DNA of 64,000 bases, from the NCBI GenBank assembly GCA_029242745.1, contig JAQWTI010000034.1:24-64023 (forward strand), read 5' to 3'. Below, piece after piece: positions 13,830 through 30,823 of the stretch (the first letter of the stretch is position 1; every line of letters begins with the position of its first letter). Position numbers and translations under genes: made by a program. Under the pieces are notes generated by a model. That model did not search any database. It worked only from the letters and a program-made list of their open reading frames with translations, and was not told the origin of the DNA. The DNA is from Acidimicrobiales bacterium (GTDB lineage: Bacteria > Actinomycetota > Acidimicrobiia > Acidimicrobiales > MedAcidi-G1).

Positions 13830-13854
13830 CGAATCTAGTGCGACATAATACTAT

Positions 13855-15752: not shown

Positions 15753-16072
15753 TGGCTCTACCAGACGATGGAGCACGAAATAGCTCTTGAATCTGCGTGG
15801 CCATCGGACGGCCCACAGATTGCCTTTTCGTTTCGGAACGACTAAAGCGGTGATTGCATCCCTGCTCTGAACGCCGACGGAACGGGTCTCTCTTCGATCG
15901 GCTAACGGGGTGGCCCTACGTTCGGTCTTGTGGCCCTTGAGTACGCGAGCAGTGACGAGGGGTGTTCGAGTTCCGTCCAACATGAGACGAGTGTGCGGCG
16001 GCAGTCCTGCTTGACAGCAACTCGCGTGGCTTGGAAACTGAGGCCAGTCGATTGAGGGGTAAGTTTTTGAAA

Positions 16073-17092
16073 ATGCATGAGTTTTTACGTCGGATTCCAA
16101 AAGTCAGTCTGCACTGCCACCTAGAGGGATCGATCCAGCCCGAGACGGTTATCGATCTGTCGGTCAAGCATGGCATCGAGTTGCCCGACTACGACGATCC
16201 AGGCGACCTGTATAGCTACTCCGACATCTACGAATTCTTAAAGATGTACGACGTCGCCGCTCATTCAGTTCGGGACCACGACGATTTCCGGCGAGTTACC
16301 TACGAAACCCTCAAGGAGGCGGCCGATCACAGCGTGCGATATCGGGAGATGTTCTGGAGTCCAATGGCGCACATGGAGTCGGACGTCGCATACGGAACTG
16401 CGGTCGACGGCATTATCGAGGGCATGCAGGATGCAGAGGCCGACTTCGGCATTCAGTGCCGCTTAATTGCTGACATCAATCGGATGGATACGGCGGAGCA
16501 TGGGTACGAGATGGTTTCCATCATCGCCGAGAACCCTCGACCGGAGCTGATAGGAATCGGTCTGGATTACGCCGAGGCTGGCAACCCGCCTGAGAAGTTC
16601 GAGGCCGCATTTCAGTTGGCTGGCCAGAACGGGTTGCATCGCACGGCGCACTGCGCCGAGGACGGGCCGGCCGCCAACATCACTACAGCACTCGATCTCC
16701 TCAAGTGCGAGCGCATCGACCACGGCTACCACATCCTCGGTGATGACGCGGTGGTACAGCGCTGCGTGGAGGATGAGGTGGTTTTCACGTGTACGCCTAA
16801 ATCGACAGAGTGGGTGTATTTCGGTAATGGCATGGCTAATCACCCGATCAAAGAGATGGTGAGCCGAGGACTCAAGGTCATGATTGACTGCGACGACCCA
16901 CCGATGTTTAAGACGGACCCGACGAATGACTACATCGAGGCGGCTGACCACATGGGCTTCGATTCAGCAGATTTCAAGCGGTTTGTGCTCAACGGCATCG
17001 ATGGGTGCTGGATTGATGACAGCACACGTCAACAATGGCGACAGTCGTTTGGTGCGGAGATCGACGAACTAGCCACGCAACTAACGGACTAG
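16073..17092 (+). CDS. adenosine/adenine deaminase-family amidohydrolase, paralog 1
   Basis: ATG at 16073 gives MHEFLRRIPKVSLHCHLEGS (HxH metal motif). Also AHCAED (HAGE variant), RIDHGYH, DCDDPPMF. The ORF track opens at 16031. Confidence 0.8.
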   Translation: MHEFLRRIPKVSLHCHLEGSIQPETVIDLSVKHGIELPDYDDPGDLYSYSDIYEFLKMYDVAAHSVRDHDDFRRVTYETLKEAADHSVRYREMFWSPMAHMESDVAYGTAVDGIIEGMQDAEADFGIQCRLIADINRMDTAEHGYEMVSIIAENPRPELIGIGLDYAEAGNPPEKFEAAFQLAGQNGLHRTAHCAEDGPAANITTALDLLKCERIDHGYHILGDDAVVQRCVEDEVVFTCTPKSTEWVYFGNGMANHPIKEMVSRGLKVMIDCDDPPMFKTDPTNDYIEAADHMGFDSADFKRFVLNGIDGCWIDDSTRQQWRQSFGAEIDELATQLTD

Positions 17093-17150
17093 GTTCGGCT
17101 CCACCCTGCTGTTCGGGACGGTCGAGAAGGCGCCAGATTGGCGGCGACTG

Positions 17151-18407
17151 CTAATTGGTGCGCTTTCTCTCAACGAAGGGTAGTGCTCGTGTTGTTGCTC
17201 TGACTTCGCCGACCTCCTCACCCGCTTCTCGCCAAGCAAGCTTGACTTCCGTCCCTGGCTTGGCGGCCCGGGGGGCGATCCGGGCAAGTCCGATGAGGCC
17301 GTTTACGTTCGCGCTCCAGGCGATGCTGCCGACATGACCGACCGGAGTGCCGTCCAGTCTCAGTTCGAGCAGTGGGAACCGCTGGACACGTCCGGGGACT
17401 CGGGGCGGGCGGCCGGATGCCTCTTGAAGCGAGACGATGTCTCGCCAGTTGACCTCGATACCAACGAGCTTTGTCTTCGGGCCGCCGCCTTCGCGTTCAG
17501 CAACGAGGGCGTCGCGCCCGATGAAATCGCCCTTGTCGAAGTCGATGAAACGACCTGCGCCGATCTCGTCGGGAGTCGCCAACCATTGCACGGACTGCGG
17601 GCCGGTGGGGTCGCTGTCTTGCCTAGGGGCGTCCAGTCCCGCCAAGGTGTAGTCGATGACTGGTAGGACGAGACCTGCTTCGATTCGACACACGTCTTCG
17701 GAGGCGTCGCCCAAGTGTTCCAGTCCGTGGGGTTTTCCGGCTTCGACCAGAGCGTCGAACACGGGGAGCGCCCCATCGGAAGGGACCCACACTTCGAAGC
17801 CGCGTTCGCCTCCGAAGCCGACGCGCCACAGCCAGACGTCCACACCGGCCAGTTGCGTCTGAGCCCCGCGACCGAAACGCAGATCACTCCAATCTTGGCC
17901 AGTCGCGGCGGTGACGATATCGAACGCTGCGGGACCCTGCAGGTGGAGATTTCCCCAGTCGGTGGTCTCCTCTTCGATCTCGACATCGAACCCTTCGCGG
18001 TGTGCGGCGAACCAGTTATCCATAGGGCCGGATGTGTAGCAGTAGCGATCATCAGCGACGCGGAAGAGGACGCCGTCGATGATGACGTGACCGTCTTCAT
18101 CGCAGAACACGATGTATTTCGACACACCAACGTCCCAGGCGTCGACGTCTCGGATAATCAGGCGTTGGAGTAATGCAGCGGCGTCAGGTCCAGAGAAGAA
18201 ATACATCGACAACGGTGACTTGTCTTCGAGGACGGCGTGCTGGCGCATTGCGATGACGGCCGCCTCGTGGTTTCCAAACTCAGCCGGTCGCACGTAGACC
18301 TTCACGCCGTTCATCCAGTCGGACCATGTGCTGGATCTGTTCAACTGGGCATGGCGCGGGGTGAACGGCGTGACCGCCAAGGAGAGTTGGGGCTCATCGT
18401 TTGCCAT
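17151..18407 (-). CDS. GcvT-family aminomethyltransferase-like folate-binding protein
   Basis: 418-aa ORF with GcvT/DmdA-like layout (...LEDKSPLSMYFFSGPDA..., GFGGERGFEVW, CRIEAGL, C-terminal barrel). Divergent from the oxygenase operon. Confidence 0.7.
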   Translation of the reverse strand: MANDEPQLSLAVTPFTPRHAQLNRSSTWSDWMNGVKVYVRPAEFGNHEAAVIAMRQHAVLEDKSPLSMYFFSGPDAAALLQRLIIRDVDAWDVGVSKYIVFCDEDGHVIIDGVLFRVADDRYCYTSGPMDNWFAAHREGFDVEIEEETTDWGNLHLQGPAAFDIVTAATGQDWSDLRFGRGAQTQLAGVDVWLWRVGFGGERGFEVWVPSDGALPVFDALVEAGKPHGLEHLGDASEDVCRIEAGLVLPVIDYTLAGLDAPRQDSDPTGPQSVQWLATPDEIGAGRFIDFDKGDFIGRDALVAEREGGGPKTKLVGIEVNWRDIVSLQEASGRPPRVPGRVQRFPLLELRLDGTPVGHVGSIAWSANVNGLIGLARIAPRAAKPGTEVKLAWREAGEEVGEVRATTRALPFVERKRTN

Positions 18408-18945
18408 GGCAACCTTCCCTTCTCGTCTTGATACAGAGCGTGAGTCTAGTTCTGTTGAGCTGACCGAAGTTTAATTGGTGTGTTGACAGGTGAGCGTCGC
18501 GTCCCATCCTTCAGCAGTGCCAACGAGGCGCACGAGAAGATCGGCGGAATACCTCTGCTGTACCTCCACTGATCACAACAAGGTCACCATCCACGCTGCA
18601 CCTTGGACCTGACCGTTCCCGTCACCGAACTCAACAAGGAGGTCATCGCTGTTGTCAAACTAATCAGTAACAGATCAGAACCAAAAGAGGTTCCTCTCGA
18701 TTAACTCTCTGGCCGTTGGTGCTACCAGCGTGTCGCTCGATGGTCCTAGGAGTGCTTGATTTGCAGGGGTGATTTTGGAACAGGGACCTTCGCTCAGCTC
18801 TGAGAGTTGCATGCCAGCCCCGAAGCAGTGCTCTACGAGCCTCACTGCAAACTTCAGGTGGGGTAGTCTTGCAGGGCGGCTTTTGTTGATGCTTAAGTAC
18901 AGGCATGTGCGGAATTTAGGATTCGGGGGCTTGGAGCATCCTGTC

Positions 18946-19860
18946 ATGAACCTTCTAGGAAACCCAGAGGTATGTACGAACGGAGCCATTCTTGACCTTT
19001 GGCATCCGGTGGTTCCTACCAGTGAGATCGAAGTGGGAATAGTGCGGCAGGTGGTGCTGCTTGGGCAAGCAGTCAGTTACTCATTAACAGCGCCAGGGAC
19101 TTACTTTGCCTGGCGAACGGACCCTGCCATTCCCGCAGGAACAGTGTTTATGCCGTCGGTGGTAACTGAAAATCTTCCTGTTCTGCATCGGTATGGGTAT
19201 CTCTGGACAAGTCTTGGAGACCCAAGCGAAAGTCTCTTTGAAATTCCTGAATATGACGAACCAGATAGAAGAAATATCCACGCGGCGACGATTGGTGTCT
19301 ACTGCTCGGCGCCTCGGGCAGTAGAGAACTTTTTGGACTTGGGCCATTTTCCATACGTCCACACTGGGGTTCTAGGCATTGAGCCTCATACGGAAGTCGT
19401 CGAATACGACGTGCATGTAGATCCCGAGAACAATGAGCTCTGGGCTACTAACTGCCGCTTCTTTCAACCAATGGCGGCAGCCACCTCCACAACGGGCAAG
19501 ACGGTCGGGTACGAATTCCGGGTACCCCACCCTTACTGTTGTCTTCTCTACAAGACATCGCCTCTTGACAGCTCGCGTGTGGACGCAATTGGACTGTTTG
19601 TTCGATCGGTTGCTCCTGACTACATTGAGGCGAACATGTTTCTGAGCCTGCTTGATGAATCGAGTAGTGATTCGTTTATCCGCCAGTTCCAGCAATTAAT
19701 TTTTGCTCAGGACAAGCCCATCCTCGAAAATCAGAACCCAAAACTGCTACCGCTCGACCCTCGGGCCGAGACGCCTGTCCGGTCCGACAAGTTGGCAATC
19801 GCATATCGACGGTGGCTTTCTGACCTAGGCGTCACTTATGGCGTGCTTCCAAAGACTTGA
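18946..19860 (+). CDS. Rieske-less non-heme-iron oxygenase component (VanA/NdmC-like catalytic domain)
   Basis: ATG at 18946 with GGAG 9 nt upstream; the ORF track opens at 18769. Mononuclear iron motif ENFLDLGHFPYVH is present. The N-terminal WHPVV...RYGYLWTSLGDP frame of a Rieske domain is retained, but no CxH...CxxH ligands. Confidence 0.75.
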   Translation: MNLLGNPEVCTNGAILDLWHPVVPTSEIEVGIVRQVVLLGQAVSYSLTAPGTYFAWRTDPAIPAGTVFMPSVVTENLPVLHRYGYLWTSLGDPSESLFEIPEYDEPDRRNIHAATIGVYCSAPRAVENFLDLGHFPYVHTGVLGIEPHTEVVEYDVHVDPENNELWATNCRFFQPMAAATSTTGKTVGYEFRVPHPYCCLLYKTSPLDSSRVDAIGLFVRSVAPDYIEANMFLSLLDESSSDSFIRQFQQLIFAQDKPILENQNPKLLPLDPRAETPVRSDKLAIAYRRWLSDLGVTYGVLPKT

Positions 19861-19864
19861 GCCG

Positions 19865-21625
19865 ATGAGTAAAAGTTTGACGAATCTCTGGCATCCGATC
19901 GCGAGCGCTGAGGACCTGCCGTATCGCCACATCTTCCAGGGCCAGTTGCTTGGTCGTGAGCTTGCCGTGTGGCGAGCCGATGACGATTTTGTCAACATCT
20001 GGGAGAATCGCTGTCTGCATCGCGGTGTGCGACTCTCGATCGGGAGGAACGAGGGGCTTGAGCTTAAGTGTCAGTATCACGGCTGGCGCTACGCCAATCG
20101 ATCGGCTGGCTGTACCTACATTCCTGCTCATCCAGCGGACGCACCGGCTCGTACCATCTGCAACCGAACATTCCCGGTCTGTGAACGTTACGGACTGATC
20201 TGGTCGGGGGAGGACCCAACGGGAGATCCTCCTGAGATTTCACTCTTAGAGAAAGGTCGAACGCTCCCGTTGCGGAGCATCGCGGTCAACGCATCGCTGA
20301 ATCTCGTCCTGGAACACCTAGCCAACTATCGCTTTTCCCTCAACGGTGATCCTGGAAACCTTGCCGTGACCACTGCGGACTATCTGGACCAGTGTTCTCT
20401 TTCGGTAACTGCGACTTGCGATAGCAAACAATCGACAGTCCTCTTCTTCGTTCAGCCGGTTGACTCAAATCGATCCGTGATTCGAGGCGTCCTTTGCAGC
20501 AGCCCAACGGATTCTGAGCGGCTCCTGACGCTGCGACATCACAGCACGGAATTGTCTCACCTCCGCGAGAAAGTCGAACTCGACGCCCTTAAGGCCCCGC
20601 TGATTCAGCCAATGACGCCCACTATCGAACAGGTTCCTATCACCAGTTACGAAATAATGATGCCTTCTTCTGGTCGTAAGGCATCACTCCGCGTGCAAGT
20701 GCTTCGCAAATGGGTGACCGCCGAAGGGATTGTGGGTCTGGAACTCGAATCGATCGGCAAACCTCTACCAACTCCCCAGCCTGGCGCCCATATCGACGTG
20801 CACCTGCCCAATGGGTTGGTGCGGCAGTATTCGCTGACAAATGCACCAGGGCAGGGATCGCTATATCGGCTGGGGGTCAAACTTGAATCAGATTCACGTG
20901 GTGGTTCTTCCTGCCTCCACGAAACGGTCAAAGAAGGAGACGTCTTAGCCATTTCTGAGCCGCGGAACAACTTTTCGCTACGCCGCGACGCCGTGAAGAC
21001 GCTCTTGGTGGCTGGTGGGATCGGAGTGACGCCCCTGTTGTCAATGGCTCACACGCTAAGAAACAACAAATTAGACTACGAACTGCATTACTTCGCACAG
21101 ACCGATGGGCATCTCGCCTTTCCTGAGGTACTGCAGGAGTTTGGTGATGCAGTAGTGCTCCATCTCGGCCTATCGCCAGAGGCAACGAGCAAGGAACTGA
21201 CTGCGTTGCTTTTGGGATACAAGTCAGCAATGCACGTCTATGTATGTGGACCTGGACCCATGCTCGAGGCCGCTCGCCGTATTGCTTCTGAGGAGGGTTG
21301 GCCTGATACGGCCGTGCACTTTGAGTATTTCAGGAACACCATCGAGATTGACAGTTCATCTTCGTTCGAAGTCAGTTTGGCCAGATCAGCCCTCACACTT
21401 GAGATTCCGAGCGGCAAGACTATTCTCGAGATTCTTCGCGCAAACGGCATAACACTGATGTCGTCCTGTGAGCAAGGTGCATGTGGCACGTGCGAAGTAC
21501 CGGTGGTCGAAGGTGACCCAGAACATCAAGATGTCTACCTCAACGACTCAGAGAAGGCGGCAGGTCAGAGAATCATGACTTGTGTCTCTCGTGCGAAGTC
21601 GCCCCGTCTGGTTCTAGACATCTAG
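19865..21625 (+). CDS. Rieske [2Fe-2S] + FNR-like flavin/NAD(P)H + plant-type [2Fe-2S] ferredoxin fusion reductase (NdmD-like)
   Basis: Starts 4 nt after the previous stop. Rieske CLHRG...CQYHGW. FNR-like RQYSLTN, LLVAGGIGVTP, YVCGP. C-terminal CEQGACGTC...C ferredoxin motif. Confidence 0.8.
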   Translation: MSKSLTNLWHPIASAEDLPYRHIFQGQLLGRELAVWRADDDFVNIWENRCLHRGVRLSIGRNEGLELKCQYHGWRYANRSAGCTYIPAHPADAPARTICNRTFPVCERYGLIWSGEDPTGDPPEISLLEKGRTLPLRSIAVNASLNLVLEHLANYRFSLNGDPGNLAVTTADYLDQCSLSVTATCDSKQSTVLFFVQPVDSNRSVIRGVLCSSPTDSERLLTLRHHSTELSHLREKVELDALKAPLIQPMTPTIEQVPITSYEIMMPSSGRKASLRVQVLRKWVTAEGIVGLELESIGKPLPTPQPGAHIDVHLPNGLVRQYSLTNAPGQGSLYRLGVKLESDSRGGSSCLHETVKEGDVLAISEPRNNFSLRRDAVKTLLVAGGIGVTPLLSMAHTLRNNKLDYELHYFAQTDGHLAFPEVLQEFGDAVVLHLGLSPEATSKELTALLLGYKSAMHVYVCGPGPMLEAARRIASEEGWPDTAVHFEYFRNTIEIDSSSSFEVSLARSALTLEIPSGKTILEILRANGITLMSSCEQGACGTCEVPVVEGDPEHQDVYLNDSEKAAGQRIMTCVSRAKSPRLVLDI

Positions 21626-21634
21626 GGCGTGGTG

Positions 21635-22294
21635 ATGATCAAACTCTTCGATTACATCCTTTCAGTGAACTGCTATAAGCAGAGATTGATAATGAGCATC
21701 CTGGACGTGCCCTTTGAGTCGATACCCGTCGACTTCTACCCGGGATTGGAACACAAGGGTGAGGAGTTCAAGAAGATCAATCCACTTGGGCATATACCGG
21801 TCATCGACGACGACGGCTTCATGCTGCGAGATGCCCACGCAATCCTCGTATATCTCGCGTCAAAGTACGACCCAACCGGCCTTTGGTACCCAGTTAACTC
21901 CCCAGAGCTCGTTGGCGAAACTACCCAGTGGATGCTTTTTGCTGAAGGAACCACCAACACGGCTTCTGCGGCTCGTCTGCACGTGAACCTCGGTTACGAA
22001 TTCGACATTGATTCGTGTCGAGAGGGAGCCCACCGTCTGTTTCGCGTACTCGACGAGCATCTTTGGTTCAGAGAGCAAGAAAACCGGGACTGGGTGTGTT
22101 CAGGCGAACACCCCACCATCGCTGATATCGCGATATTCCCTGATGTAATCCTCTCCGAGGAAGGGGGTATTGCCCGTATCGATTACCCAGCGATTCGAAG
22201 GTGGACCGATCGGGTGAAACGACTTCCCGGGTTCCTGCCTATGCCGGGAATCTTCCCAACAGCTGATGCTCGGCCGCTATCTCACGAAGTTTGA
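21635..22294 (+). CDS. glutathione S-transferase-like protein (NdmE-like position)
   Basis: Thioredoxin-like N-domain (INPLGHIPVIDDDGFMLRDAHAILVYLA) plus a helical C-domain. Starts 9 nt after the reductase stop. Confidence 0.75.
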   Translation: MIKLFDYILSVNCYKQRLIMSILDVPFESIPVDFYPGLEHKGEEFKKINPLGHIPVIDDDGFMLRDAHAILVYLASKYDPTGLWYPVNSPELVGETTQWMLFAEGTTNTASAARLHVNLGYEFDIDSCREGAHRLFRVLDEHLWFREQENRDWVCSGEHPTIADIAIFPDVILSEEGGIARIDYPAIRRWTDRVKRLPGFLPMPGIFPTADARPLSHEV

Positions 22295-22554
22295 CCGGTC
22301 GCCCGCAGGAAGGAATTCCTTTCCCGTTCGGTCGTTTGAAAGGCAGGCGGCGGGCTTCGCTGATGCGAGTTGGCGGTTATTCCTAAACTCTTTCTACAAA
22401 CGCAAAGCAGGTGAGTCAGATACCAGAGGGCGGCTCAACCTCTCTGCTAGTGGAGAGTTGTTATCGTTCCCGTATCGCTTCAGAGTTATTTTGCTCTGAC
22501 CTTGCGTACTGACTTGCAGCGAGTTGTTGCAGAAAAGACTGGGGGGTAGACAAG

Positions 22555-23586
22555 TTGGACTATGCCGAGTTCTTACGGAAGATCCCAAAGGTCGAGTTGC
22601 ACTGCCACCTTGAGGGGAGCGTGCGAGCAACAACGGCCGTCGAACTTGCTAAGAAGTACTCAGTTCGCCTTCCGACCTACGAGCCGGAAGAGTTGTACCA
22701 GTACGAAGGAATCGTTGAGTTCCTCGAACGCTACATCCAGATATCTCATGCCATTATTGACCGTGAGGACTTTGCCCGTATCGCCTACGAAGCACTGGCG
22801 GATGGAGTGGCATTTGGCAACCTCCGTTATCGGGAGATGTTCCTGAACCCGACGAACCACTATGCCGACGGCGTGTCCTACGACACCGTGATCGATGGGG
22901 CTATCGATGGGATTCGGCAGGCAGAGCGGGATTATGGGGTTCAATGCCGACTGATCGTCGGCATCAATCGAGCGGAGTCTCCAAGTGATGCCGTCACCCT
23001 TGTTCAGCAGGTCGTCGATTCACCGCGCGATGAGGTAGTCGGGATTGGTCAGGACCATCTGACCCCTGACAACGAGGAAAATCCAGGCCGGTTCACTGAG
23101 GCGTACAGGCTCGCTGTAGCAAATGGATTAAACATCACCGCTCATGCCGGTGAGATCGACTCCTCGACCTCTGCGGATGTCGCAGCGGCTCTTGATCTGG
23201 GGTGTTTGCGCATTGATCACGGCTACAAGATTCTCGAAGACTCAGAACTCTTAAAGCGGGCTCGTGACAACAATGTTTATTTCACGTGCTGTCTCTTCTC
23301 GAGCAGGATTCTCTCCGGTTGGCACGATCTCGCAAATCATCCGATTCGACACATGATTGACGCGGGGCTCAATGTGACACTCAATACCGACGACCCGACA
23401 ATGATGAACACCCACATCGGGAAAGAGTACGAGGAGGGTTGCGTGGAGATGGGCCTTGGTCTGGACCAGGTGATAAAAATCGTGTTCAATGGCGTCGATG
23501 CTGCGTGGATGAATGGTGCCGACAAACAGGCACTACGCCATGAGTTTGAAGAAGCGATTAACTCACTCGGCTCCGAGTTGAATTGA
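22555..23586 (+). CDS. adenosine/adenine deaminase-family amidohydrolase, paralog 2
   Basis: TTG start with a G-rich RBS. ELHCHLEGS, ITAHAGE, RIDHGYK, LNTDDPTMM. Confidence 0.8.
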   Translation: MDYAEFLRKIPKVELHCHLEGSVRATTAVELAKKYSVRLPTYEPEELYQYEGIVEFLERYIQISHAIIDREDFARIAYEALADGVAFGNLRYREMFLNPTNHYADGVSYDTVIDGAIDGIRQAERDYGVQCRLIVGINRAESPSDAVTLVQQVVDSPRDEVVGIGQDHLTPDNEENPGRFTEAYRLAVANGLNITAHAGEIDSSTSADVAAALDLGCLRIDHGYKILEDSELLKRARDNNVYFTCCLFSSRILSGWHDLANHPIRHMIDAGLNVTLNTDDPTMMNTHIGKEYEEGCVEMGLGLDQVIKIVFNGVDAAWMNGADKQALRHEFEEAINSLGSELN

Positions 23587-23691
23587 CCCTCTGGAGATGG
23601 CTTACAGTGCGACAAAGCCTCAACCTGCGAGCCGAGTTCCGTGGGAAGCCAACTGCGACCAGCATTGCCTGTCTAATCTAGGAGGGTCTCG

Positions 23692-24720
23692 ATGAACATT
23701 GACGAAGCACTCCGCCTGATGCCAAAGACGGAACTTCACCTCCATCTTGAGGGGGCGGTGGACTCAACTACGTTCGCTGAACTTGCAGCGAAACACAGAC
23801 TTGAATTGCCGCCTCATGCCGTGGCGTCAGATCTTTACGAGTACGACAGCTTGGCTGATTTCCTTGATGTGTACTCGTTGGTGTCTCACTCGATACGAGA
23901 TCGTGATGATTTCCAGAGGGTGACCTACGAATGTCTTGAGCGCTGCGTGAACAGCGGTGCACGGTATGTCGAATTATTTTTTAGCCCCGAGTCGCACCTT
24001 CAAGTTGGAGTTAGTTACGAGACAATGCTTGAGGGCGTGCTCCAGGGTGTGGAAGATATCCAAGTAGACCTCGGTTTGGTTAGCAACCTCGTACCCGCGA
24101 TTAATCGTGAACTTGGCGGATATAGGGCCGTGGAATTTGTTCAGATGGTGGCGGACCACCGCCACGATCGAATAATTGGTGTGGGGCTGGATTTCAACGA
24201 GTTGGGCCACCCACCAGAAGCCTTCGTGGACGCCTTCCGTCTGGCCAGCCAAGTCGGCTTACATCGCACATCCCACGCTGGTGAGGTCGGACCCGCGCAG
24301 AACATTCGAACCGGAATCGAACTCCTTGATTGCCAAAGAGTCGACCATGGCTACAACATCGTGGAGGACGCTCGTTTGCTTGCAGATTGCGCGGCTAGCC
24401 AGATTCCTTTCACTGCATGTCCAACAACGACCACTTACACGAGTGCCTTTCGTGATCTAGGAGCCCCTGACCACGCAATTCGTCAAATGGCCGATGCAGG
24501 TCTAAAACTCACCATCAACTCTGACGATCCGCCAATGTTTGGTATCGATCTGGCAATGGAGTACTGCACCCTTTATCACCAGATGGGTTTCACTCCAGAC
24601 GACCTCAAGACGTTTGCGCTCAACGGCATCGATGCGGCGTGGATCGATGACCAAACTAAACGAGAATGGCGCTCCACCTGGAGCAACGAAATTGATGGCC
24701 TCCTTAGTCAGGTGGTCTGA
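23692..24720 (+). CDS. adenosine/adenine deaminase-family amidohydrolase, paralog 3
   Basis: AGGAGGG RBS. ELHLHLEGA, TSHAGE, RVDHGYN, INSDDPPMF. Confidence 0.8.
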   Translation: MNIDEALRLMPKTELHLHLEGAVDSTTFAELAAKHRLELPPHAVASDLYEYDSLADFLDVYSLVSHSIRDRDDFQRVTYECLERCVNSGARYVELFFSPESHLQVGVSYETMLEGVLQGVEDIQVDLGLVSNLVPAINRELGGYRAVEFVQMVADHRHDRIIGVGLDFNELGHPPEAFVDAFRLASQVGLHRTSHAGEVGPAQNIRTGIELLDCQRVDHGYNIVEDARLLADCAASQIPFTACPTTTTYTSAFRDLGAPDHAIRQMADAGLKLTINSDDPPMFGIDLAMEYCTLYHQMGFTPDDLKTFALNGIDAAWIDDQTKREWRSTWSNEIDGLLSQVV

Positions 24721-24941
24721 TCTTCAGGGGAAAGACTGGAATTAATTTGATCCACGAGTTCGCCGCGGAGACCGCATCTTCAGGGCTGAGATTTTAGATC
24801 GAGTATCGCCTCAATGTCTTGAATCGGTCCAGTTTTGGCCTTTTCCTATGGCCCCTGGGCCGAGAAAGCCTCAGAGCGCTGCCACTGCTAATGTGCGCAA
24901 TGTTGTTTGGGGCGAGAGGCTGGAGAAACAAAACTGTGGAC

Positions 24942-25961
24942 ATGGAGGCCTTTCTAAAAGCCATTCCAAAGGTGAGTCTGCATCTTCACTTGATGGGTTC
25001 GGTGCAGGCGCGTACCGCTGTGGAATTGTGTCAGAAACATGGGGTGGTACTGCCGGATTTTGAGGAGCCAGAGGATCTCTACGACTATCCAGACATTTAC
25101 AAGTTTCTCCACATGTATGACAACACTGCTCTTGGTGTGGTCGATAGAGAAGATTTTGAGCGAATTTGCTACGAGACCCTAAGCGAAGCGGCGGACCACA
25201 ACGTTCGCTACCGCGAAATGTCCTTTAACCCCACCACGCATATGGCGGCCGGCGTGGATTATGGGACTTGCGTCGACGGTCTCATTGATGGCATCAACGC
25301 GGCTCGGACCGATTATGGCATCGAGTGTCGCCTGGTCGCTGCAGTGAACCGGATGGAAAGTCCCGAACTCGCCGTCGAGATGGTCGAGACAATGCTGGCA
25401 AATCCCCGAGACGAGGTAATCGGAATTGGCTTGGACTACGCGGAGGACTCAGGGACCTCACCCGAGAGATTCTGGAAGGCCTATGGGATGGCACGCCGCG
25501 CTGGATACCGGTTGACAGCACACGCATCTGAGGCTGAACCACCTCGCAACATCGAGACGTGTTTAGATCTATTGGGCTGTGAGCGCGTTGACCACGGCTA
25601 TCACGTGGTCGAAAGTGAAGATGTGATGCGGCGCTGCCGAGACGAAGGCGTTGTTTTCACCTGCACCCCGGTTTCGACAGCATGGGTTTACTTTGATAAC
25701 GACTTTGACAACCACCCAATCGAACGCATGCGCGAATTTGGTTTGAAAATCAGCTTGGATTGCGATGATCCACCGATGTTCAAGACGGATCCAACAAAAG
25801 ACCTGGTCATGGCCCACAACCACATGGGCTTCGAAGTAGAGGACTTCCGACAGTGCATGCTTAACGGTATCGACGGGGCTTGGATTGACGAACCCGACAA
25901 GCGGTCAATGAGACGCCATTGGTCGACAGAGTTTGATGACCTGGCTGCGAATTTGGCCTAA
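24942..25961 (+). CDS. adenosine/adenine deaminase-family amidohydrolase, paralog 4 (variant motifs)
   Basis: ATG at 24942 gives MEAFLKAIPKVSLHLHLMGS. Also TAHASE, RVDHGYH, LDCDDPPMF. Closest to paralog 1. The ORF track opens at 24819. Confidence 0.75.
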   Translation: MEAFLKAIPKVSLHLHLMGSVQARTAVELCQKHGVVLPDFEEPEDLYDYPDIYKFLHMYDNTALGVVDREDFERICYETLSEAADHNVRYREMSFNPTTHMAAGVDYGTCVDGLIDGINAARTDYGIECRLVAAVNRMESPELAVEMVETMLANPRDEVIGIGLDYAEDSGTSPERFWKAYGMARRAGYRLTAHASEAEPPRNIETCLDLLGCERVDHGYHVVESEDVMRRCRDEGVVFTCTPVSTAWVYFDNDFDNHPIERMREFGLKISLDCDDPPMFKTDPTKDLVMAHNHMGFEVEDFRQCMLNGIDGAWIDEPDKRSMRRHWSTEFDDLAANLA

Positions 25962-26044
25962 GGTCGGAAGTAATATGTGCAATAGGGATTTAAGTAGTTG
26001 ACAAACTAGAGATACGACCGATAACGGGGAATGGGGCTTACTAA

Positions 26045-27214
26045 ATGAATAAGAATCAAACGGGAGGATTGCACCTTCCACCTTCTGCAAGTGGACCTGG
26101 TTACAGCCGGCGAGATGCACTTCGGCTAGGAGCCATTGGTGTTGGTGGCCTCGCCATAGGTGGTTCACTTCTGGCTGCTTGCGGCTCGGACGATTCTAGC
26201 ACAGGCGCCTCTGGCGGAGCCAAGGAGAGCATTAAGGCACATTGGGTCTACATCGGACCGCCTGACGATCAGGGTTGGACCCAGCGACACCATGAGGGCT
26301 ACTTGGCTGCTGTGGCTGCGATGGGGGACAAGATGGTTTCCGGGTACACACCCAACATAGGGTTCGACGCAGGCACCACTCAGCTCTTCCAGCAACTGGT
26401 AGATGACAAGAACGACATCATCTTTATGAACACGGAATACTCCGGACTCATGAGTGAGGTAGCGGACGCCAACCTTCAGGTGAAGTGGGCTGAGACCAAC
26501 GGCCATCATTTCACTGAGAACTGCTTTGGTTACTACCTCGCCCACGAAACCACTGCCTATCTGCTCGGAGTTGCAGCAGCTCATCTTGCTGACAATGGGC
26601 GGATTGGTTACATCGGAGCGTTTCCGACTGCGACTGCCTACAACGATGTCAATGGCATGCTCCTAGGGGCACGATCGGTTAACCCCGAGGCAACCGTTGA
26701 GACGGTTATGGTCAGCACGTTCTATGACCCTCAGGCGGCTGCGCAGGCATCTGACGCCCTGCTCAACAACGGTGTGGACTTCTTGTTTGGAGTGATGGAT
26801 GAACCAACCTTCCTCAACCTTGCAGAAGAGGCTGGCGTCTGGACTGGCTACTGGAACGGCGACTTCCCTGAGCAGGCGCCGAACATGTACACAGCCGGTT
26901 TCGATATCGGTCACGGCCTTGGCCCGTTCTACACCCAGCAGTGCCAAGCGGTTCTTAATGGTTCATGGGTCGCTCCAAGCGTGGCCACACTTCTTGACAC
27001 GCCACTGGGCGACTGGGGTCCAAAGGTTCCTCAGGACGTCAAAGATGCGGTCGCCGCAGCTGACGCTGCGCTGAAGAGTGGCGATCTCCACGTCTACGAA
27101 GGTCCGCTTATGGACAACAAGGGCAACCAGGTCTTGGCTGCCGGCGAGACAATTGACTCTCTGGGCGCCTACGAAATCAACTGGGCAGTTGAAGGCGTGT
27201 CGGGACTGGAGTGA
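26045..27214 (+). CDS. BMP-family (PnrA/Med-like) ABC substrate-binding lipoprotein, nucleoside/purine type
   Basis: Tat-like SRRDAL plus lipobox LLAACGS. The BMP-family body is a by-eye call (IGYIGAFP, FLFGVMDEP). Confidence 0.7.
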   Translation: MNKNQTGGLHLPPSASGPGYSRRDALRLGAIGVGGLAIGGSLLAACGSDDSSTGASGGAKESIKAHWVYIGPPDDQGWTQRHHEGYLAAVAAMGDKMVSGYTPNIGFDAGTTQLFQQLVDDKNDIIFMNTEYSGLMSEVADANLQVKWAETNGHHFTENCFGYYLAHETTAYLLGVAAAHLADNGRIGYIGAFPTATAYNDVNGMLLGARSVNPEATVETVMVSTFYDPQAAAQASDALLNNGVDFLFGVMDEPTFLNLAEEAGVWTGYWNGDFPEQAPNMYTAGFDIGHGLGPFYTQQCQAVLNGSWVAPSVATLLDTPLGDWGPKVPQDVKDAVAAADAALKSGDLHVYEGPLMDNKGNQVLAAGETIDSLGAYEINWAVEGVSGLE

Positions 27215-28746
27215 TCGAACCGGATCATTCGTATGCCGTCGAGGCGCGGGGCATTTCCAAGTATTTCGGAGGTGTCGCCGCCCTCGACGGTGTCGACTTT
27301 AAAGTTCATTGGGGCGAGGTCCATGCTCTCCTAGGTGAGAACGGTGCTGGAAAGACCACACTTTCCAACATTCTTGCTGGCATATATCGGGCGGACTCAG
27401 GTGAGATTGCCGTTGATGGACTCACCCATGAGGTTCGCACGCCTGCCCAGGCGATCGAAGCTGGAATTGGAATGGTTCACCAGCATTTCAAGCTCGTCGA
27501 AACTATGACAGTGGCCGAGAACGTCCACCTCGGTTGGCCTGATACCCCAACCTTGGTCAGCCAGCGGGTGTTGGTAGACCGGACTAACCATTTGATGGAA
27601 GAAATCGGACTTCATGTCGACCCGACTGCGAAGGTCTGGCAATTGTCGGTTGGAGAACAACAGCGAGTTGAGATCCTTAGAGTGTTAGCGCGAGGAGCCC
27701 AAATACTCATCCTCGACGAACCCACGGCGGTCCTGACTTCCCACGAAGCCAGAGACTTGTTCAAGGTCATGCGCGACCTCGTTTCGGGCGGCCGGACAGT
27801 CATCTTCATAAGTCACAAACTGAATGAAGTGCTCGAAGTTTCCGATCAGATCACAGTTCTCCGCGACGGGGTTCATGAGGTCACACGTTCGGCTGAAGGA
27901 GCGACACCGCGAGAGCTGGCACGGTTGATGACTGGTGAGGAAAGAACTCTTGAGGTTGAACATCGAGAGATTACGGGAGAAACTGTTCTGCAGCTCGAGG
28001 GTGTAACGGCGAGCAATGACCGCGGCGTTGTTGCTCTCAGCAGCGTTGATCTAGTAGCGCGGTCAGGTGAAATTCTTGGAATAGCCGGGGTGTCTGGCAA
28101 CGGCCAGACTGAACTTGCTGAGGTCATCTCAGCTATGCGCAGAGTGGACGGCGGGACAATCACTGTTGATGGCGAAGATGTTGCCAATGGCCTGGTCCGG
28201 AAGGTCACCGACCTTGGAGTTGGTCATATACCAGAGGATCGCATCGGTGTTGGCATAGTTGGGTCAGCCTCCGTTAAGGACAACGCTGTTCTCAGGCACT
28301 ACTGGACTGAGGGGTTATCGAGTGGCGTCACGCTGTTTCGCCAGGCAGTTGTCGACTTTGCGACCCGCTTGGTCGAAGTTGCTCGCGTGCAAACCCGATC
28401 AATTACTGCCACTGCCGGTCAGATGTCAGGGGGGAATCAGCAGCGTCTCGTAGCCCGACGTGAGGCCCTATTAGCGACCCGAGTGCTGATAGCCGTTCAC
28501 CCCACGCGTGGTCTAGACGTGCTTGCTGCTCAAGAGGTGCAAACCGCCGTAATCGGACAGCGCGATAGAGGTGCAGCTGTTCTCTTCATCTCGGACGATC
28601 TCGATGAAGTTCTCCTGATGAGTGACCGGATTGCAGTGATGTACGAAGGGCGCATCATGGGGATCTTCGATCGGGTAGATGCAGATCGTGAGGCGATTGG
28701 TTTGATGATGGGCGGCCACACGCTCGAAGAAGCGATGGCTAAATGA
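27211..28746 (+). CDS. ABC transporter ATP-binding protein, duplicated-domain (ribose/nucleoside type)
   Basis: GTGA overlap with the SBP stop. Walker A GENGAGKTT and degenerate GVSGNGQTE. Signatures LSVGEQQR and MSGGNQQR. Confidence 0.9.
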   Translation: MIEPDHSYAVEARGISKYFGGVAALDGVDFKVHWGEVHALLGENGAGKTTLSNILAGIYRADSGEIAVDGLTHEVRTPAQAIEAGIGMVHQHFKLVETMTVAENVHLGWPDTPTLVSQRVLVDRTNHLMEEIGLHVDPTAKVWQLSVGEQQRVEILRVLARGAQILILDEPTAVLTSHEARDLFKVMRDLVSGGRTVIFISHKLNEVLEVSDQITVLRDGVHEVTRSAEGATPRELARLMTGEERTLEVEHREITGETVLQLEGVTASNDRGVVALSSVDLVARSGEILGIAGVSGNGQTELAEVISAMRRVDGGTITVDGEDVANGLVRKVTDLGVGHIPEDRIGVGIVGSASVKDNAVLRHYWTEGLSSGVTLFRQAVVDFATRLVEVARVQTRSITATAGQMSGGNQQRLVARREALLATRVLIAVHPTRGLDVLAAQEVQTAVIGQRDRGAAVLFISDDLDEVLLMSDRIAVMYEGRIMGIFDRVDADREAIGLMMGGHTLEEAMAK

Positions 28747-29825
28747 GCACCTATCGTTTGGAGCGCCGACTCGAAGTCGACACGAAGAAGCAAGCACTCA
28801 CAAGAGTTGCTGGCGCGTTAATTGCCATGGCCGTAGCCGGGCTCGTTCTGTTGCTGACAGGTCGAAACTCGTTCAAAATTCTTTTTGATGGACTCGAAGC
28901 GATCTTCGGCAGTCAACGAGGCCTAGAAGGTGTAGCGCTCCGGGCCATTCCGATTCTCATGACAGCACTCGCCGTTGCGTTGTCGCTTCGCATGAAGATA
29001 TGGAATATTGGTTCGGGTGGTCAGTTTCTTATGGGTGCGTTCGCGGCACTTGGAGTCGGCATCCATGTGAACGGCCCGGGCTGGCTTGTCTTGATCTTGA
29101 TGGCACTTGCAGCGCTAGTCGCTGGTTCTCTATGGATTTTAGTTCCAGCGCTTGCCCGCGCCTATTGGGACGTCAATGAGATCATCACAACCTTGCTGCT
29201 CAACTTCGTCGCGGCACAGTTGGTGACCTGGGCTTCAATTGGATTTTGGCGTGATACTGAGGCAGCTGTTATTCAGTCCACCAAACGGGTGCCCTACAGG
29301 CTTGCTGAGTTGCCAGGCACCGACTCGTTGACTATTGCTCTATTGGTGCCGTTCGTCATCGCTTTAGTGCTGTTCTGGATATTTCGTTCGACGACTATTG
29401 GTTTTGAGATCGACACCATAGGAGGCAACGCGCGGGCTGCGGCCTTTGCCGGGATAAACGTTCGCCGCCGGATACTGCTGGTGATGCTCTGTACCGGAGC
29501 GATAGCGGGCCTTGGTGGAATGTTGCAACTTAGTGCCCCGGGGGCACGGCAACTCGGTCCAGGATACGAAGCGCAGTTTGGACTAACCGGCTTCATCGTT
29601 GCGGCCCTTGCCGGAGGGGCAATGATGGGCGTGTTAGTTGGTGGAACCTTCATTGCCTCGATGTTCTTTGCTGGCTTGGTGCTTCAGACCAAAGGCCTAT
29701 CCGTCTACATCATCTTTGGCATATATGGCCTAATTCTCACCGGGGTCGCGTTAGGCGAAATGGCTGCTAGATATCGACTGGTTCGGGTAGGGGATGCGGT
29801 TAGTAGCGAAAGAGTTGCATCATGA
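28743..29825 (+). CDS. ABC transporter permease (BPD_transp_2 type)
   Basis: ATGA overlap. Multi-TM protein typical of ribose/nucleoside-type permeases. Confidence 0.8.
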   Translation: MSTYRLERRLEVDTKKQALTRVAGALIAMAVAGLVLLLTGRNSFKILFDGLEAIFGSQRGLEGVALRAIPILMTALAVALSLRMKIWNIGSGGQFLMGAFAALGVGIHVNGPGWLVLILMALAALVAGSLWILVPALARAYWDVNEIITTLLLNFVAAQLVTWASIGFWRDTEAAVIQSTKRVPYRLAELPGTDSLTIALLVPFVIALVLFWIFRSTTIGFEIDTIGGNARAAAFAGINVRRRILLVMLCTGAIAGLGGMLQLSAPGARQLGPGYEAQFGLTGFIVAALAGGAMMGVLVGGTFIASMFFAGLVLQTKGLSVYIIFGIYGLILTGVALGEMAARYRLVRVGDAVSSERVAS

Positions 29826-30805: not shown

Positions 30806-30823
30806 GGCAAAGAGGTCATTGCT

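What the first reader, a model, noticed from the sequence alone, without database searches (positions are those of the whole stretch)
18946..22294. Three-gene module with the NdmC/NdmD/NdmE (GST-dependent N-demethylase) architecture outside its known Pseudomonas context
The module has three parts:
- 18946..19860 is an oxygenase catalytic subunit with an intact mononuclear-iron motif (ENFLDLGHFPYVH) but no Rieske ligands.
- 19865..21625 is a 586-aa reductase carrying an extra N-terminal Rieske domain (CLHRG...CQYHGW) in front of FNR-like and plant-type ferredoxin domains.
- 21635..22294 is a GST-like protein.

Gaps are 4 and 9 nt.

From memory of Summers et al. 2013 (J Bacteriol), this exact triad is the hallmark of the caffeine/7-methylxanthine N7-demethylase NdmCDE of Pseudomonas putida CBB5. 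There the Rieske-less NdmC needs the Rieske domain of NdmD, and the GST-like NdmE acts as a structural partner.

Finding the same triad in a high-GC actinobacterial/Chloroflexota-like gene neighbourhood, next to deaminases and a nucleoside-type importer, suggests a homologous heterocycle N-demethylase acting on a different and probably uncharacterised substrate.
Basis: partly seen in the sequence, partly recalled or inferred. Interest (0 to 1): 0.8.

Follow-up and report, generated by a model that had tools for sequence, protein, structure and literature searches.

The report
NdmCDE-type purine N-demethylase gene cluster
A marine Acidimicrobiales genome carries a genuine relative of the three-protein caffeine-pathway demethylase NdmCDE inside a cluster of purine deaminases and a transporter; it is probably a methylated-purine demethylase, a kind of cluster already noted in other bacteria in 2013 but never assigned a substrate.

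Summary
There is a Rieske-less oxygenase (18946-19860), a Rieske+FNR+ferredoxin reductase (19865-21625) and a GST-like protein (21635-22294), with gaps of 4 and 9 nt. All three align over their full length with NdmC, NdmD and NdmE of a bona fide Pseudomonas ndmABCDE cluster, at 42, 36 and 58% identity.

The oxygenase falls in a clade of Rieske-less oxygenases that includes NdmC (200/200 NJ bootstraps). It is not in NdmC's own subclade, so the substrate is open.

The triad is not rare. A scan of species-representative genomes found 584 related stretches. The GST gene follows the reductase gene in 62 of 67 loci. A 2015 review reports that ndmCDE-like clusters of unknown function were already found in 18 organisms in 2013.

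The window comes from an Acidimicrobiales MAG. The surrounding genes point to catabolism of methylated purine bases:
- four diverged ADA-family deaminases
- a BMP-type ABC importer
- a second, full-length NdmA-like oxygenase
- a GcvT-like folate protein

Side result: NdmD's N-terminal half looks like a whole oxygenase subunit that has lost its iron site, and NdmC keeps a vestigial Rieske domain. The "split" therefore looks like duplication with reciprocal loss.

Verdict: new member of a known kind, moderate interest.

The parts
18946..19860 (+). NdmC-like Rieske-less non-haem-iron oxygenase (304 aa). It has a vestigial N-terminal Rieske remnant and an intact 2-His-1-Asp site.
   Evidence: Pfam VanA_C only. 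42% identical over its full length to NdmC of a bona fide ndm cluster. Iron-site and bridging residues are invariant. It lies in a clade of Rieske-less oxygenases with 200/200 NJ bootstraps. The N-terminus aligns to a Rieske domain with the cluster-binding loops deleted.
19865..21625 (+). NdmD-like reductase (586 aa). Domains in order: Rieske [2Fe-2S], a START-fold middle domain, a phthalate-dioxygenase-reductase-type FMN/NADH module, and a plant-type ferredoxin.
   Evidence: Pfam hits. PDB sequence hits: 2pia 3.5e-59 and the NdmD ferredoxin domain 6icm_D 4.6e-20. 36% identical over its full length to NdmD. All cluster ligands are invariant. Middle-domain fold.
21635..22294 (+). NdmE-like GST-fold protein (219 aa), presumed scaffold of the complex.
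   Evidence: Pfam GST_N and GST_C. 58% identical to NdmE. It directly follows the reductase gene in 62 of 67 loci. It is the most conserved of the three proteins.
30824..31816 (+). Second oxygenase ('RO2'), a full-length Rieske + VanA_C protein of the NdmA/NdmB/SxtT type (330 aa). It probably uses the same reductase.
   Evidence: Pfam. PDB sequence hits: SxtDIOX 1.9e-48, NdmA 3e-34, NdmB 5e-27. No other reductase was found in the window. Orthologues lie beside the triad in L004, L005, L085 and L086.
17151..18407 (-). GcvT-like folate-binding aminomethyltransferase-family protein, divergently transcribed. Proposed to capture the C1 unit (formaldehyde) as methylene-tetrahydrofolate.
   Evidence: Pfam GCV_T 1.2e-49. 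NCBIfam hits to the folate domains of demethylases, all below cut-off. A 93%-identical orthologue lies next to the module in L004 and L005.
16031..17092 (+). ADA-family deaminase paralogue 1.
   Evidence: A_deaminase 5.6e-71. Above the TIGR01430 cut-off. A 92%-identical orthologue lies beside the triad in L085 and L086.
22555..23586 (+). ADA-family deaminase paralogue 2.
   Evidence: Best PDB hits are 4gxw and 3rys. 38-43% identical to the other paralogues, with catalytic motifs intact.
23692..24720 (+). ADA-family deaminase paralogue 3.
   Evidence: Best PDB hits are 4gxw (1e-62) and 3ou8 (6.8e-57), ahead of the other entries named adenosine deaminase at about 1e-29 to 1e-38.
24819..25961 (+). 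ADA-family deaminase paralogue 4. The true start is probably near 24939, because the domain begins at residue 50 of the ORF.
   Evidence: 54% identical to paralogue 1.
26045..30805 (+). BMP/PnrA-family ABC importer: binding protein 26045-27214, ATPase 27211-28746, permeases 28743-29825 and 29822-30805.
   Evidence: Pfam Bmp, ABC_tran and BPD_transp_2 x2. The same transporter type lies within 10 kb of the triad in about 60 of 85 loci, in different orientations in Alphaproteobacteria and Acidimicrobiia.
32230..33213 (+). 2-oxoglutarate/Fe(II) oxygenase (DIOX_N + 2OG-FeII_Oxy). Tentatively part of the island; role unknown.
   Evidence: Pfam. Homologues flank ndmCDE-like genes in P. putida pPp1290 (L002) and in L007, L046, L060, L066 and L078.

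Best explanation
This is an NdmCDE-type three-component Rieske monooxygenase that removes N-methyl groups from purine bases. It sits inside a catabolic island for methylated or otherwise modified purines in a marine Acidimicrobiales bacterium.

**Electron path (inferred by homology).** NADH reduces the flavin of the reductase. Electrons pass to its C-terminal plant-type [2Fe-2S] cluster, then to its N-terminal Rieske cluster. From there they go in trans, via the conserved bridging Asp131, to the mononuclear iron (His134, His139, Asp256) of the Rieske-less oxygenase.

**Chemistry (inferred).** The oxygenase hydroxylates an N-methyl group, which then leaves as formaldehyde.

**Assembly (inferred).** The GST-fold protein is a non-catalytic scaffold that holds oxygenase and reductase together, as proposed for NdmE.

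**Second oxygenase (inferred).** The full-length NdmA-like oxygenase at 30824-31816 draws electrons from the same reductase and removes a methyl group at another position.

**Pathway (inferred from context).**
1. The BMP-type ABC transporter imports the compounds.
2. The four diverged ADA-family deaminases convert different amino- or alkylamino-purines to oxo-purines.
3. The oxygenases demethylate these to hypoxanthine or xanthine.
4. The GcvT-like protein traps the C1 unit on tetrahydrofolate.

**Shown versus inferred.** Shown: homology, intact cofactor ligands, conserved synteny and conserved purine context. Inferred: complex formation, demethylation chemistry, and the identity of the substrates (methyladenine-, methylhypoxanthine- or methylxanthine-type).
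For: **Homology to the characterised system.**
- Full-length homology to bona fide NdmC, NdmD and NdmE.
- All metal and cofactor ligands are invariant.
- The Rieske-less oxygenases form one clade that includes NdmC, with 200/200 NJ bootstraps.
- Bona fide NdmC and the window protein show the same ranking against solved structures: SxtT/SxtDIOX first, then NdmA/NdmB.

**Conserved synteny.**
- The C>D>E order with a GST-like gene recurs in 62 of 67 loci that have both D and E.

**Formaldehyde-handling genes travel with the triad.**
- frmA-like genes in 15 loci and fghA-like genes in 9 loci, 59-65% and 45-49% identical to the annotated genes of the Pseudomonas cluster.
- GcvT-like genes in the window and its closest relatives.

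**Purine context.**
- Four ADA paralogues in the window.
- Guanine-deaminase-like genes in 9 loci, including the closest relatives L004, L005, L085 and L086.
- Adenine-deaminase-like genes.
- BMP transporters in about 60 of 85 loci.
- In Pseudomonas relatives: a nucleobase symporter and urate hydroxylase HpxO.

**Literature.**
- NdmCDE is a roughly 360 kDa C3D3E3 complex. NdmC is insoluble without NdmD and NdmE. NdmD also serves NdmA and NdmB (PMC4408171; PMC10380055).
Against: - No biochemical data exist for this protein or for any member of its subclade.
- The window oxygenase is only 42% identical to NdmC and lies in a different subclade. The internal branching of the clade is poorly supported (10-34% bootstrap).
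- The nearest solved structures, SxtT and GxtA, are C-H hydroxylases, not demethylases.
- BMP-family binding proteins also carry non-purine ligands. The only NCBIfam hit of this one is a weak match to a putative B6 transporter.
- GcvT-like proteins also accompany osmolyte demethylases.
- No regulator, riboswitch or promoter evidence ties the genes into one operon.
- Gene-context counts come from phylogenetically related genomes and are not independent.
Confidence: 0.6

Rival explanations
1. It is a functional equivalent of NdmCDE itself. The substrate would be 7-methylxanthine, produced by deamination of 7-methylguanine released from RNA caps, tRNA, rRNA or alkylated DNA. The widespread family would then be a 7-methylguanine salvage route, not an alkaloid pathway.
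For: - NdmC is the only characterised member of the clade of Rieske-less oxygenases.
- Guanine-deaminase-like genes sit directly beside the triad in the closest relatives L004, L005, L085 and L086 and in several Alphaproteobacteria.
- Caffeine is an implausible substrate for marine Acidimicrobiia (inference).
Against: - The window itself has no guanine-deaminase-like gene. It has ADA-family paralogues instead.
- The oxygenase is in a different subclade from NdmC, at 42% identity.
- Many loci carry two or three different Rieske-less oxygenases, which implies several specificities.
Confidence: 0.2
2. The oxygenase is a C-H hydroxylase of a purine-like or guanidinium heterocycle (SxtT/GxtA-type chemistry) rather than an N-demethylase.
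For: SxtDIOX and SxtT are the best solved-structure matches of the oxygenase (1.4e-26), of the reductase's Rieske domain (9e-23) and of the second oxygenase (1.9e-48).
Against: - Bona fide NdmC and NdmD give the same SxtT-first ranking, so the ranking does not discriminate.
- Formaldehyde- or C1-handling genes accompany the triad.
- Sequence identity to NdmC (238 bits) far exceeds that to SxtDIOX (97 bits).
Confidence: 0.12
3. It demethylates a non-purine N-methyl compound (for example a methylated amine, betaine or vitamin-like heterocycle), and the deaminases are unrelated neighbours.
For: - The GcvT-like neighbour resembles the folate domains of TMAO, DMSP and aryl O-demethylases.
- The BMP binding protein's only NCBIfam hit is a putative B6 transporter.
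- The wider window is a mixed catabolic region.
Against: - Purine deaminases of three different families recur next to the triad in distant lineages.
- Pseudomonas relatives carry a nucleobase symporter and HpxO.
- The co-directional, tightly spaced genes from 18946 to 31816 include the deaminases.
Confidence: 0.07

Closest known systems
NdmCDE N7-demethylase complex of Pseudomonas putida CBB5 (7-methylxanthine to xanthine). Described from memory of Summers et al. 2013, J Bacteriol 195:3933, and reviewed in PMC4408171 and PMC10380055.
   Same: - The same three proteins in the same order, with full-length homology (42, 36 and 58% identity).
- Rieske-less oxygenase with an intact iron site.
- Reductase with an extra N-terminal Rieske domain.
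- GST-fold third subunit.
- A full-length NdmA/B-type oxygenase in the same cluster, and no second reductase.
- Purine-related neighbours.
   Different: - Different oxygenase subclade, so orthology is not established.
- Host is a marine Acidimicrobiales bacterium, not Pseudomonas.
- C1 handling is by a GcvT-like folate protein instead of frmA/fghA.
- Uptake is by a BMP-type ABC importer instead of a nucleobase:cation symporter plus OmpK.
- Four ADA-family deaminases are present.
- Substrate is unknown.
ndmCDE-like clusters of unknown function in Sinorhizobium, Mesorhizobium, Janthinobacterium sp. Marseille, Klebsiella and Pseudomonas sp. TJI-51 (reported in PMC4408171 as a 2013 finding).
   Same: - Same family. 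The window proteins are 55-58% (C), 59-62% (D) and 63-68% (E) identical to the rhizobial ones.
- A BMP-type ABC transporter is also adjacent in the rhizobial clusters.
   Different: - Rhizobial clusters usually have two tandem Rieske-less oxygenases, a GntR regulator and often frmA/fghA.
- They lack the ADA paralogues, the GcvT-like gene and the full-length second oxygenase.
NdmA and NdmB (PDB 6ick, 6icl) and SxtT, GxtA/SxtDIOX (PDB 6wn3, 6wnc): full-length alpha3-type Rieske oxygenases.
   Same: - Same superfamily and the same catalytic-domain motifs.
- The second oxygenase of the window is of this full-length type.
   Different: The finding's oxygenase lacks the [2Fe-2S] ligands and about 45 residues of the cluster-binding loops.
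Phthalate dioxygenase reductase (PDB 2pia) and class IA Rieske oxygenase reductases.
   Same: The C-terminal 310 residues of the reductase have the same FMN/NADH/[2Fe-2S] arrangement (3.5e-59; Foldseek 2.4e-24).
   Different: About 270 extra N-terminal residues: a Rieske domain plus a START-fold domain.

Membership tests
NdmCDE-type split Rieske oxygenase | Oxygenase subunit with the 2-His-1-carboxylate iron site but no Rieske [2Fe-2S] ligands. | tested here: met
   Pfam VanA_C only. No CxH...CxxH motif. E127, D131, H134, H139 and D256 are invariant.
NdmCDE-type split Rieske oxygenase | Reductase with an N-terminal Rieske domain in front of the FMN/NADH module and a plant-type ferredoxin. | tested here: met
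   Pfam Rieske, NAD_binding_1 and Fer2. Ligands are invariant. Aligns end to end with NdmD.
NdmCDE-type split Rieske oxygenase | GST-fold protein encoded directly downstream and conserved in synteny. | tested here: met
   GST_N and GST_C. 58% identical to NdmE. Adjacent on the same strand in 62 of 67 loci.
NdmCDE-type split Rieske oxygenase | Oxygenase groups phylogenetically with NdmC rather than with other Rieske oxygenases. | tested here: met
   The clade of Rieske-less oxygenases that includes NdmC is recovered in 200/200 NJ bootstraps. DdmC E = 0.04.
NdmC proper (7-methylxanthine N7-demethylase orthologue) | Membership of the NdmC subclade (orthology). | tested here: not met
   NdmC from L003 plus its L002 relative form their own 100%-supported pair, separate from the window group. 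Identity is 42%.
NdmC proper (7-methylxanthine N7-demethylase orthologue) | Activity on 7-methylxanthine with formaldehyde release. | not testable with these tools
   Needs an enzyme assay.
NdmCDE-type split Rieske oxygenase | The three proteins form one complex (C3D3E3), and the oxygenase depends on the GST-like subunit for solubility and activity. | not testable with these tools
   No multimer prediction is available here. Literature covers the Pseudomonas complex only.
Ndm system (shared reductase) | Full-length NdmA/B-type oxygenase(s) in the same cluster that use the same reductase. | tested here: inconclusive
   A full-length oxygenase is present (NdmA 3e-34) and no other reductase was found in the window. 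Sharing of the reductase is inferred.
Glutathione S-transferase (catalytic) | Intact glutathione-binding site residues. | tested here: inconclusive
   Ser10, cis-Pro55 and Asp66 are invariant. From general knowledge of GSTs, the canonical Glu-Ser pair is Asp-Ala here and in NdmE. Binding cannot be judged from sequence.

The most novel reading that the evidence does not exclude
The NdmCDE 'split' may not be a simple domain transfer. It may be a gene duplication followed by reciprocal loss.
- The reductase's first ~245 residues would be a whole oxygenase alpha-subunit that kept its Rieske cluster but lost its iron site.
- NdmC would have kept the iron site but lost the cluster loops.
- The two would assemble, with the GST-fold subunit, into a pseudo-alpha hetero-oligomer.

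One reductase/GST 'hub' would then serve several interchangeable Rieske-less catalytic subunits; two or three such genes per locus are common, and some sit alone elsewhere in the genome.

The family as a whole (584 related stretches found in species-representative genomes of soil and marine bacteria) would be a previously unrecognised route for salvaging methylated purines from nucleic-acid turnover, with this Acidimicrobiales island handling methyladenine-type bases.
Probability: 0.35. Interest if true: 0.65.

Novelty: new member of a known kind. Interest (0 to 1): 0.42.

Why it matters
NdmCDE is the only characterised Rieske oxygenase whose Rieske domain sits on the reductase and which needs a GST-fold subunit. 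Its structure is still unsolved, and its many homologues have no assigned substrate.

This locus links the triad to four diverged purine deaminases, an importer and a folate C1 acceptor in an abundant marine lineage. That gives a concrete, testable set of candidate substrates: methylated adenines, hypoxanthines and xanthines. It also suggests that the family's natural role is recycling of modified nucleobases rather than caffeine degradation.

If confirmed, it would add new regiospecific N-demethylases for biocatalysis and a piece of marine dissolved-organic-nitrogen cycling. The reciprocal-loss model, if right, would guide structural work on the complex.

Tried and rejected
- **RNA families.** Rfam scans of the whole window (gathering threshold) and of 15700-26100 (E up to 1) found no riboswitch or other RNA.
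- **Promoters and terminators.** Scans gave counts no higher than in shuffled sequence.
- **Intergenic region 18408-18945 (538 nt).** It holds only weak repeats and no convincing small ORF.
- **Exact look-up.** The window's oxygenase, and the reductase protein that is 100% identical, were not found in the contig collection. The source contig itself was therefore not retrieved.
- **Primary paper.** Summers et al. 2013 is not in the library. I relied on two reviews and a 2026 note.
- **Literature search.** A search for Rieske-dependent catabolism of methylated purines found nothing relevant.
- **Full-length reductase model.** Confidence was low in the Fe-S domains (mean pLDDT 63), and its fold search was dominated by the FNR module. 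I re-predicted the middle domain alone.
- **Solved-structure ranking.** I first took the SxtT-over-NdmA ranking as possible evidence against an Ndm relationship. I rejected this because bona fide NdmC and NdmD give the same ranking.
- **Antisense ORFs.** Many 'conserved neighbour' ORF clusters turned out to be antisense shadows of real genes and were discarded.

Full report
**1. Observation**

The three ORFs are present on the + strand.
- Oxygenase: ATG at 18946. Most close homologues are 304 aa.
- Reductase: ATG at 19865. An NCBI MAG protein of 586 aa is 100% identical.
- GST-like protein: ATG at 21635. It aligns from residue 1 with NdmE.
- The gaps are 4 and 9 nt.

Pfam results:
- The oxygenase has only the VanA_C catalytic domain.
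- The reductase has Rieske, an NAD-binding domain and Fer2.
- The third protein has GST_N and GST_C.

No NCBIfam equivalog reaches its cut-off for any of the three.

The quoted motifs are real and conserved:
- In the oxygenase, E127, N128, D131, H134, H139 and D256 are invariant across 24 homologues.
- In the reductase, the Rieske ligands C50/H52/C69/H72 and the ferredoxin cysteines C535/C540/C543/C573 are invariant across 34 homologues.

**2. Is it really NdmCDE-like?**

NdmC, full-length NdmD and NdmE are not in the structure database, so I needed a trustworthy copy.
- A tblastn search of plasmids found P. putida MT178 plasmid pTmex-577K.
- Its annotated region has the gene order frmA, oxygenase, ompK, gntR, oxygenase, nucleobase symporter, TIM-barrel protein, short oxygenase, Rieske-reductase, GST, fghA.
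- Its first oxygenase matches crystallised CBB5 NdmA at E 1e-229, about 92% identical by eye in the printed alignment. The C-terminus of its reductase matches the crystallised NdmD ferredoxin domain at 4.7e-47.
- I take this as a bona fide ndmABCDE cluster.

Against its proteins, the window proteins align end to end:

| Protein | Identity | E-value |
|---|---|---|
| NdmC | 42% | 2e-82 |
| NdmD | 36% | 8e-128 |
| NdmE | 58% | 3e-98 |

The best solved-structure match of the window oxygenase is SxtDIOX/SxtT (1.4e-26), ahead of NdmA (9e-15). This is not evidence against the relationship. Genuine NdmC and the Rieske domain of genuine NdmD show the same ranking.

**3. Phylogeny**

I built a neighbour-joining tree of 140 oxygenases collected from 84 loci plus the window, rooted on NdmA.
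- The full-length (Rieske-bearing) proteins form a basal grade.
- All Rieske-less proteins fall in one clade. A 49-sequence subset recovers this clade in 200 of 200 bootstraps.
- Inside that clade, NdmC and its P. putida pPp1290 relative form a separate pair with 100% support.
- The window protein groups with marine metagenome and Acidimicrobiia sequences. Internal branching is weakly supported (10-34%).

The protein is therefore NdmC-like, but orthology with NdmC, and hence the same substrate, is not established.

**4. Distribution and prior knowledge**

The family is large.
- 4415 protein clusters match the oxygenase at E <= 1e-5. The best 120 are nearly all about 300 aa and carry no Rieske domain; named examples come from Sinorhizobium, Ensifer, Mesorhizobium, Aminobacter, Shinella, Pseudomonas and Acidimicrobiales.
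The best match is only 64% identical (an Acidimicrobiaceae MAG).

A 2015 review states that Summers et al. 2013 found ndmCDE-like clusters of unknown function in 18 further organisms, mainly Sinorhizobium and Mesorhizobium (PMC4408171). The triad outside Pseudomonas is therefore already on record.

As of 2023-2026 the literature describes the complex as follows (PMC10380055; PMC13237722):
- It is a roughly 360 kDa C3D3E3 assembly.
- NdmE is a non-catalytic structural subunit.
- The structure is unsolved.

I found no paper that assigns a function to any homologue.

**5. Source organism**

The reductase is 100% identical to an NCBI protein from a MAG labelled Acidimicrobiales bacterium, on a 65 kb contig. 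Closer oxygenase relatives (65-79% identity) come from marine metagenomes, including Tara samples. GC content is 53-60%.

**6. Context in the window**

Pfam and NCBIfam annotation gives:

| Coordinates | Strand | Gene |
|---|---|---|
| 16031-17092 | + | ADA-family deaminase 1 |
| 17151-18407 | - | GcvT-like folate protein, divergent from the triad |
| 18946-22294 | + | the triad |
| 22555-25961 | + | three more ADA-family deaminases |
| 26045-30805 | + | BMP/PnrA-type ABC importer |
| 30824-31816 | + | full-length Rieske + VanA_C oxygenase |
| 32230-33213 | + | 2-oxoglutarate/Fe(II) oxygenase |

Further details:
- The second oxygenase matches SxtDIOX at 1.9e-48 and NdmA at 3e-34.
- The four deaminases are old paralogues, 37-54% identical to each other, with intact HxH, HxxE, DHG and DDP motifs. 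All four exceed the TIGR01430 cut-off.
- Their best solved relatives are 4gxw, 3ou8 and 3rys, ahead of the other entries named adenosine deaminase.
- From memory, 3ou8 is Pa0148, an adenine (free base) deaminase, and this family also contains N6-methyladenine and cytokinin deaminases. That is a lead, not a test.
- No second reductase was found in the window. The second oxygenase would therefore have to share the NdmD-like protein, as NdmA and NdmB do in Pseudomonas.

**7. Context elsewhere**

I called ORFs in 84 related loci plus the window, clustered them, and removed antisense shadow ORFs.

| Feature | Loci (of 85) |
|---|---|
| GST-like gene | 70 |
| Reductase gene | 68 |
| BMP-type transporter components | about 60 |
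| GntR regulator | 36 |
| frmA-like dehydrogenase | 15 |
| fghA-like esterase | 9 |
| Guanine-deaminase-like gene | 9 |
| ADA-family gene | 9 |
| 2-oxoglutarate oxygenase | 7 |
| Adenine-deaminase-like gene | 6 |
| GcvT-like gene | 6 |
| Another Amidohydro_1 deaminase | 5 |

Supporting details:
- The GST-like gene lies directly after the reductase gene on the same strand in 62 of 67 loci that have both.
- The transporter lies in different orientations in Alphaproteobacteria and Acidimicrobiia.
- The frmA-like and fghA-like genes are 59-65% and 45-49% identical to the annotated formaldehyde-detoxification genes of the Pseudomonas cluster.
- One guanine-deaminase-like gene is above the TIGR02967 cut-off and another just below it. 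The adenine-deaminase-like gene is below the TIGR01178 cut-off.

The closest relatives carry the same gene set in other orders:
- L004 and L005 are marine metagenome contigs with the oxygenase 75% identical, GcvT 93% and the transporter 90-96%.
- L085 and L086 have the reductase 80% identical.
- In these loci a guanine-deaminase-like gene occupies the position where the window has three ADA genes.

The Pseudomonas relatives carry a nucleobase symporter and the urate hydroxylase HpxO.

The recurring themes are purine deamination, uptake and C1 disposal. This supports N-demethylation of purines and argues against an unrelated substrate class. These counts are not phylogenetically independent.

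**8. Mechanism**

By homology, electrons should flow from NADH to the flavin, then to the plant-type cluster, then to the N-terminal Rieske cluster of the reductase, and finally to the iron of the oxygenase. Asp131 is the conserved carboxylate of the ENxxDxxH motif. From general knowledge of Rieske oxygenases, this residue bridges the cluster and the iron between subunits.

A side result bears on how the two proteins fit together.
- Profile-profile alignment of the reductase's first 285 residues against the oxygenase family runs colinearly from the Rieske domain into the catalytic beta-sheet (probability 99.4%, residues 7-231).
- The stretch that normally carries the iron ligands is missing there (LEHLANYR in place of ENFLDLGHFPYVH).
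- The middle region alone still matches the oxygenase family (probability 86%, E 4.9e-6).
- An AlphaFold2 model of residues 121-285 is confident (mean pLDDT 80.6; most 10-residue blocks from residue 11 to 120 average above 90).
- In a fold search of solved structures, its best matches are START-superfamily proteins (2.5e-5) and the catalytic domains of SxtT, GxtA and KshA (about 1e-4).
- Conversely, the first ~95 residues of the NdmC-like protein align to a Rieske domain from which the cluster-binding loops have been deleted.

The simplest reading is an ancestral duplication followed by reciprocal loss. This predicts a pseudo-alpha hetero-oligomer. It is an inference from modest scores and needs a complex structure.

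The GST-like subunit is the most conserved of the three. It is 75-88% identical to Acidimicrobiia and metagenome relatives, against 55-75% for the oxygenase. It keeps Ser10, Pro55 and Asp66, but has Asp-Ala where, from general knowledge, typical GSTs have Glu-Ser. Whether it binds glutathione cannot be decided here.

**9. Verdict**

- The interpretation as an NdmCDE-type system is supported.
- The novelty claim is overstated, because such clusters were already noted in 2013.
- What is new here is the lineage (marine Acidimicrobiales) and the unusually explicit purine context.
- The substrate remains unknown. I favour methylated adenine-, hypoxanthine- or xanthine-type bases (confidence about 0.6 for 'purine N-demethylase', much lower for any single compound).
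- Rating: new member of a known kind, moderate interest.

Noticed in passing
L009, L010, L014, L015, L018-L020, L022, L023 and many other Rhizobiales loci (about 9000-10900 in each): Most rhizobial loci carry two tandem Rieske-less oxygenase genes (about 290 aa and about 300 aa, from two separate clades) in front of a single reductase and a single GST-like gene. L012, L038 and L057 have a third copy. This suggests one reductase/GST pair serves several catalytic subunits.
   Followed up: partly
L031, L044, L049, L061, L072, L073 (Acidimicrobiia, 'Aldehydirespirator' MAGs): NdmC-like genes stand alone next to a Cyclase-family (PF04199) gene, and in four of the six loci a BMP-type ABC transporter. 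No reductase or GST-like gene lies within 10 kb. In genome OY730440.1 a lone copy (L055) coexists with a full triad elsewhere (L008).
   Followed up: partly
window 20225-20599 (reductase residues about 121-245): The unannotated middle of the NdmD-like reductase folds as a START/SRPBCC domain. It aligns to the catalytic domain of Rieske oxygenases with the iron-ligand stretch missing. Its residues R224, H225 and H226 are invariant or nearly so, with no obvious role.
   Followed up: yes
L087 9834-9971: In one close relative (reductase 77% identical) only a 46-residue remnant of the oxygenase gene remains upstream of intact reductase and GST-like genes. The neighbours there are unrelated to purines.
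   Followed up: partly
window 18408-18945: A 538-nt gap between the divergent GcvT-like gene and the oxygenase gene. It has no Rfam match, no promoter signal above chance, no local regulator gene, and only weak direct repeats.
   Followed up: partly
window 32230-33213; L002 10441-11439 and 17390-18379; L060, L066, L078: A DIOX_N/2OG-Fe(II) oxygenase recurs beside ndmCDE-like genes in distant hosts. There are two copies on P. putida plasmid pPp1290 and up to three in some Acidimicrobiia. Its role is unknown.
   Followed up: no
window 44191-46467 and 46675-47559: A molybdopterin subunit of the xanthine-dehydrogenase/aldehyde-oxidase family (758 aa) lies 12 kb downstream, followed by a DUF1989 protein. 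It could act on oxo-purines, but no link to the island was tested.
   Followed up: no
window 24819-24938: The ORF of the fourth ADA paralogue has an N-terminal extension of about 40 residues that is absent from its paralogues. The real start is probably the ATG near 24939.
   Followed up: partly
window 10463-15752 and 38640-41392: The flanks are rich in generic catabolic paralogue families: a family III CoA-transferase, two acyl-CoA dehydrogenases, Amidohydro_2, SDRs, a luciferase-like monooxygenase and an AMP-ligase. These are not obviously part of the purine island.
   Followed up: no
L002 14859-16614 (P. putida 1290 plasmid pPp1290): The NdmD-like gene of this plasmid is annotated as three separate short CDSs (Rieske protein, ferredoxin reductase, 2Fe-2S protein). 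This suggests frameshifts or a decaying copy.
   Followed up: no
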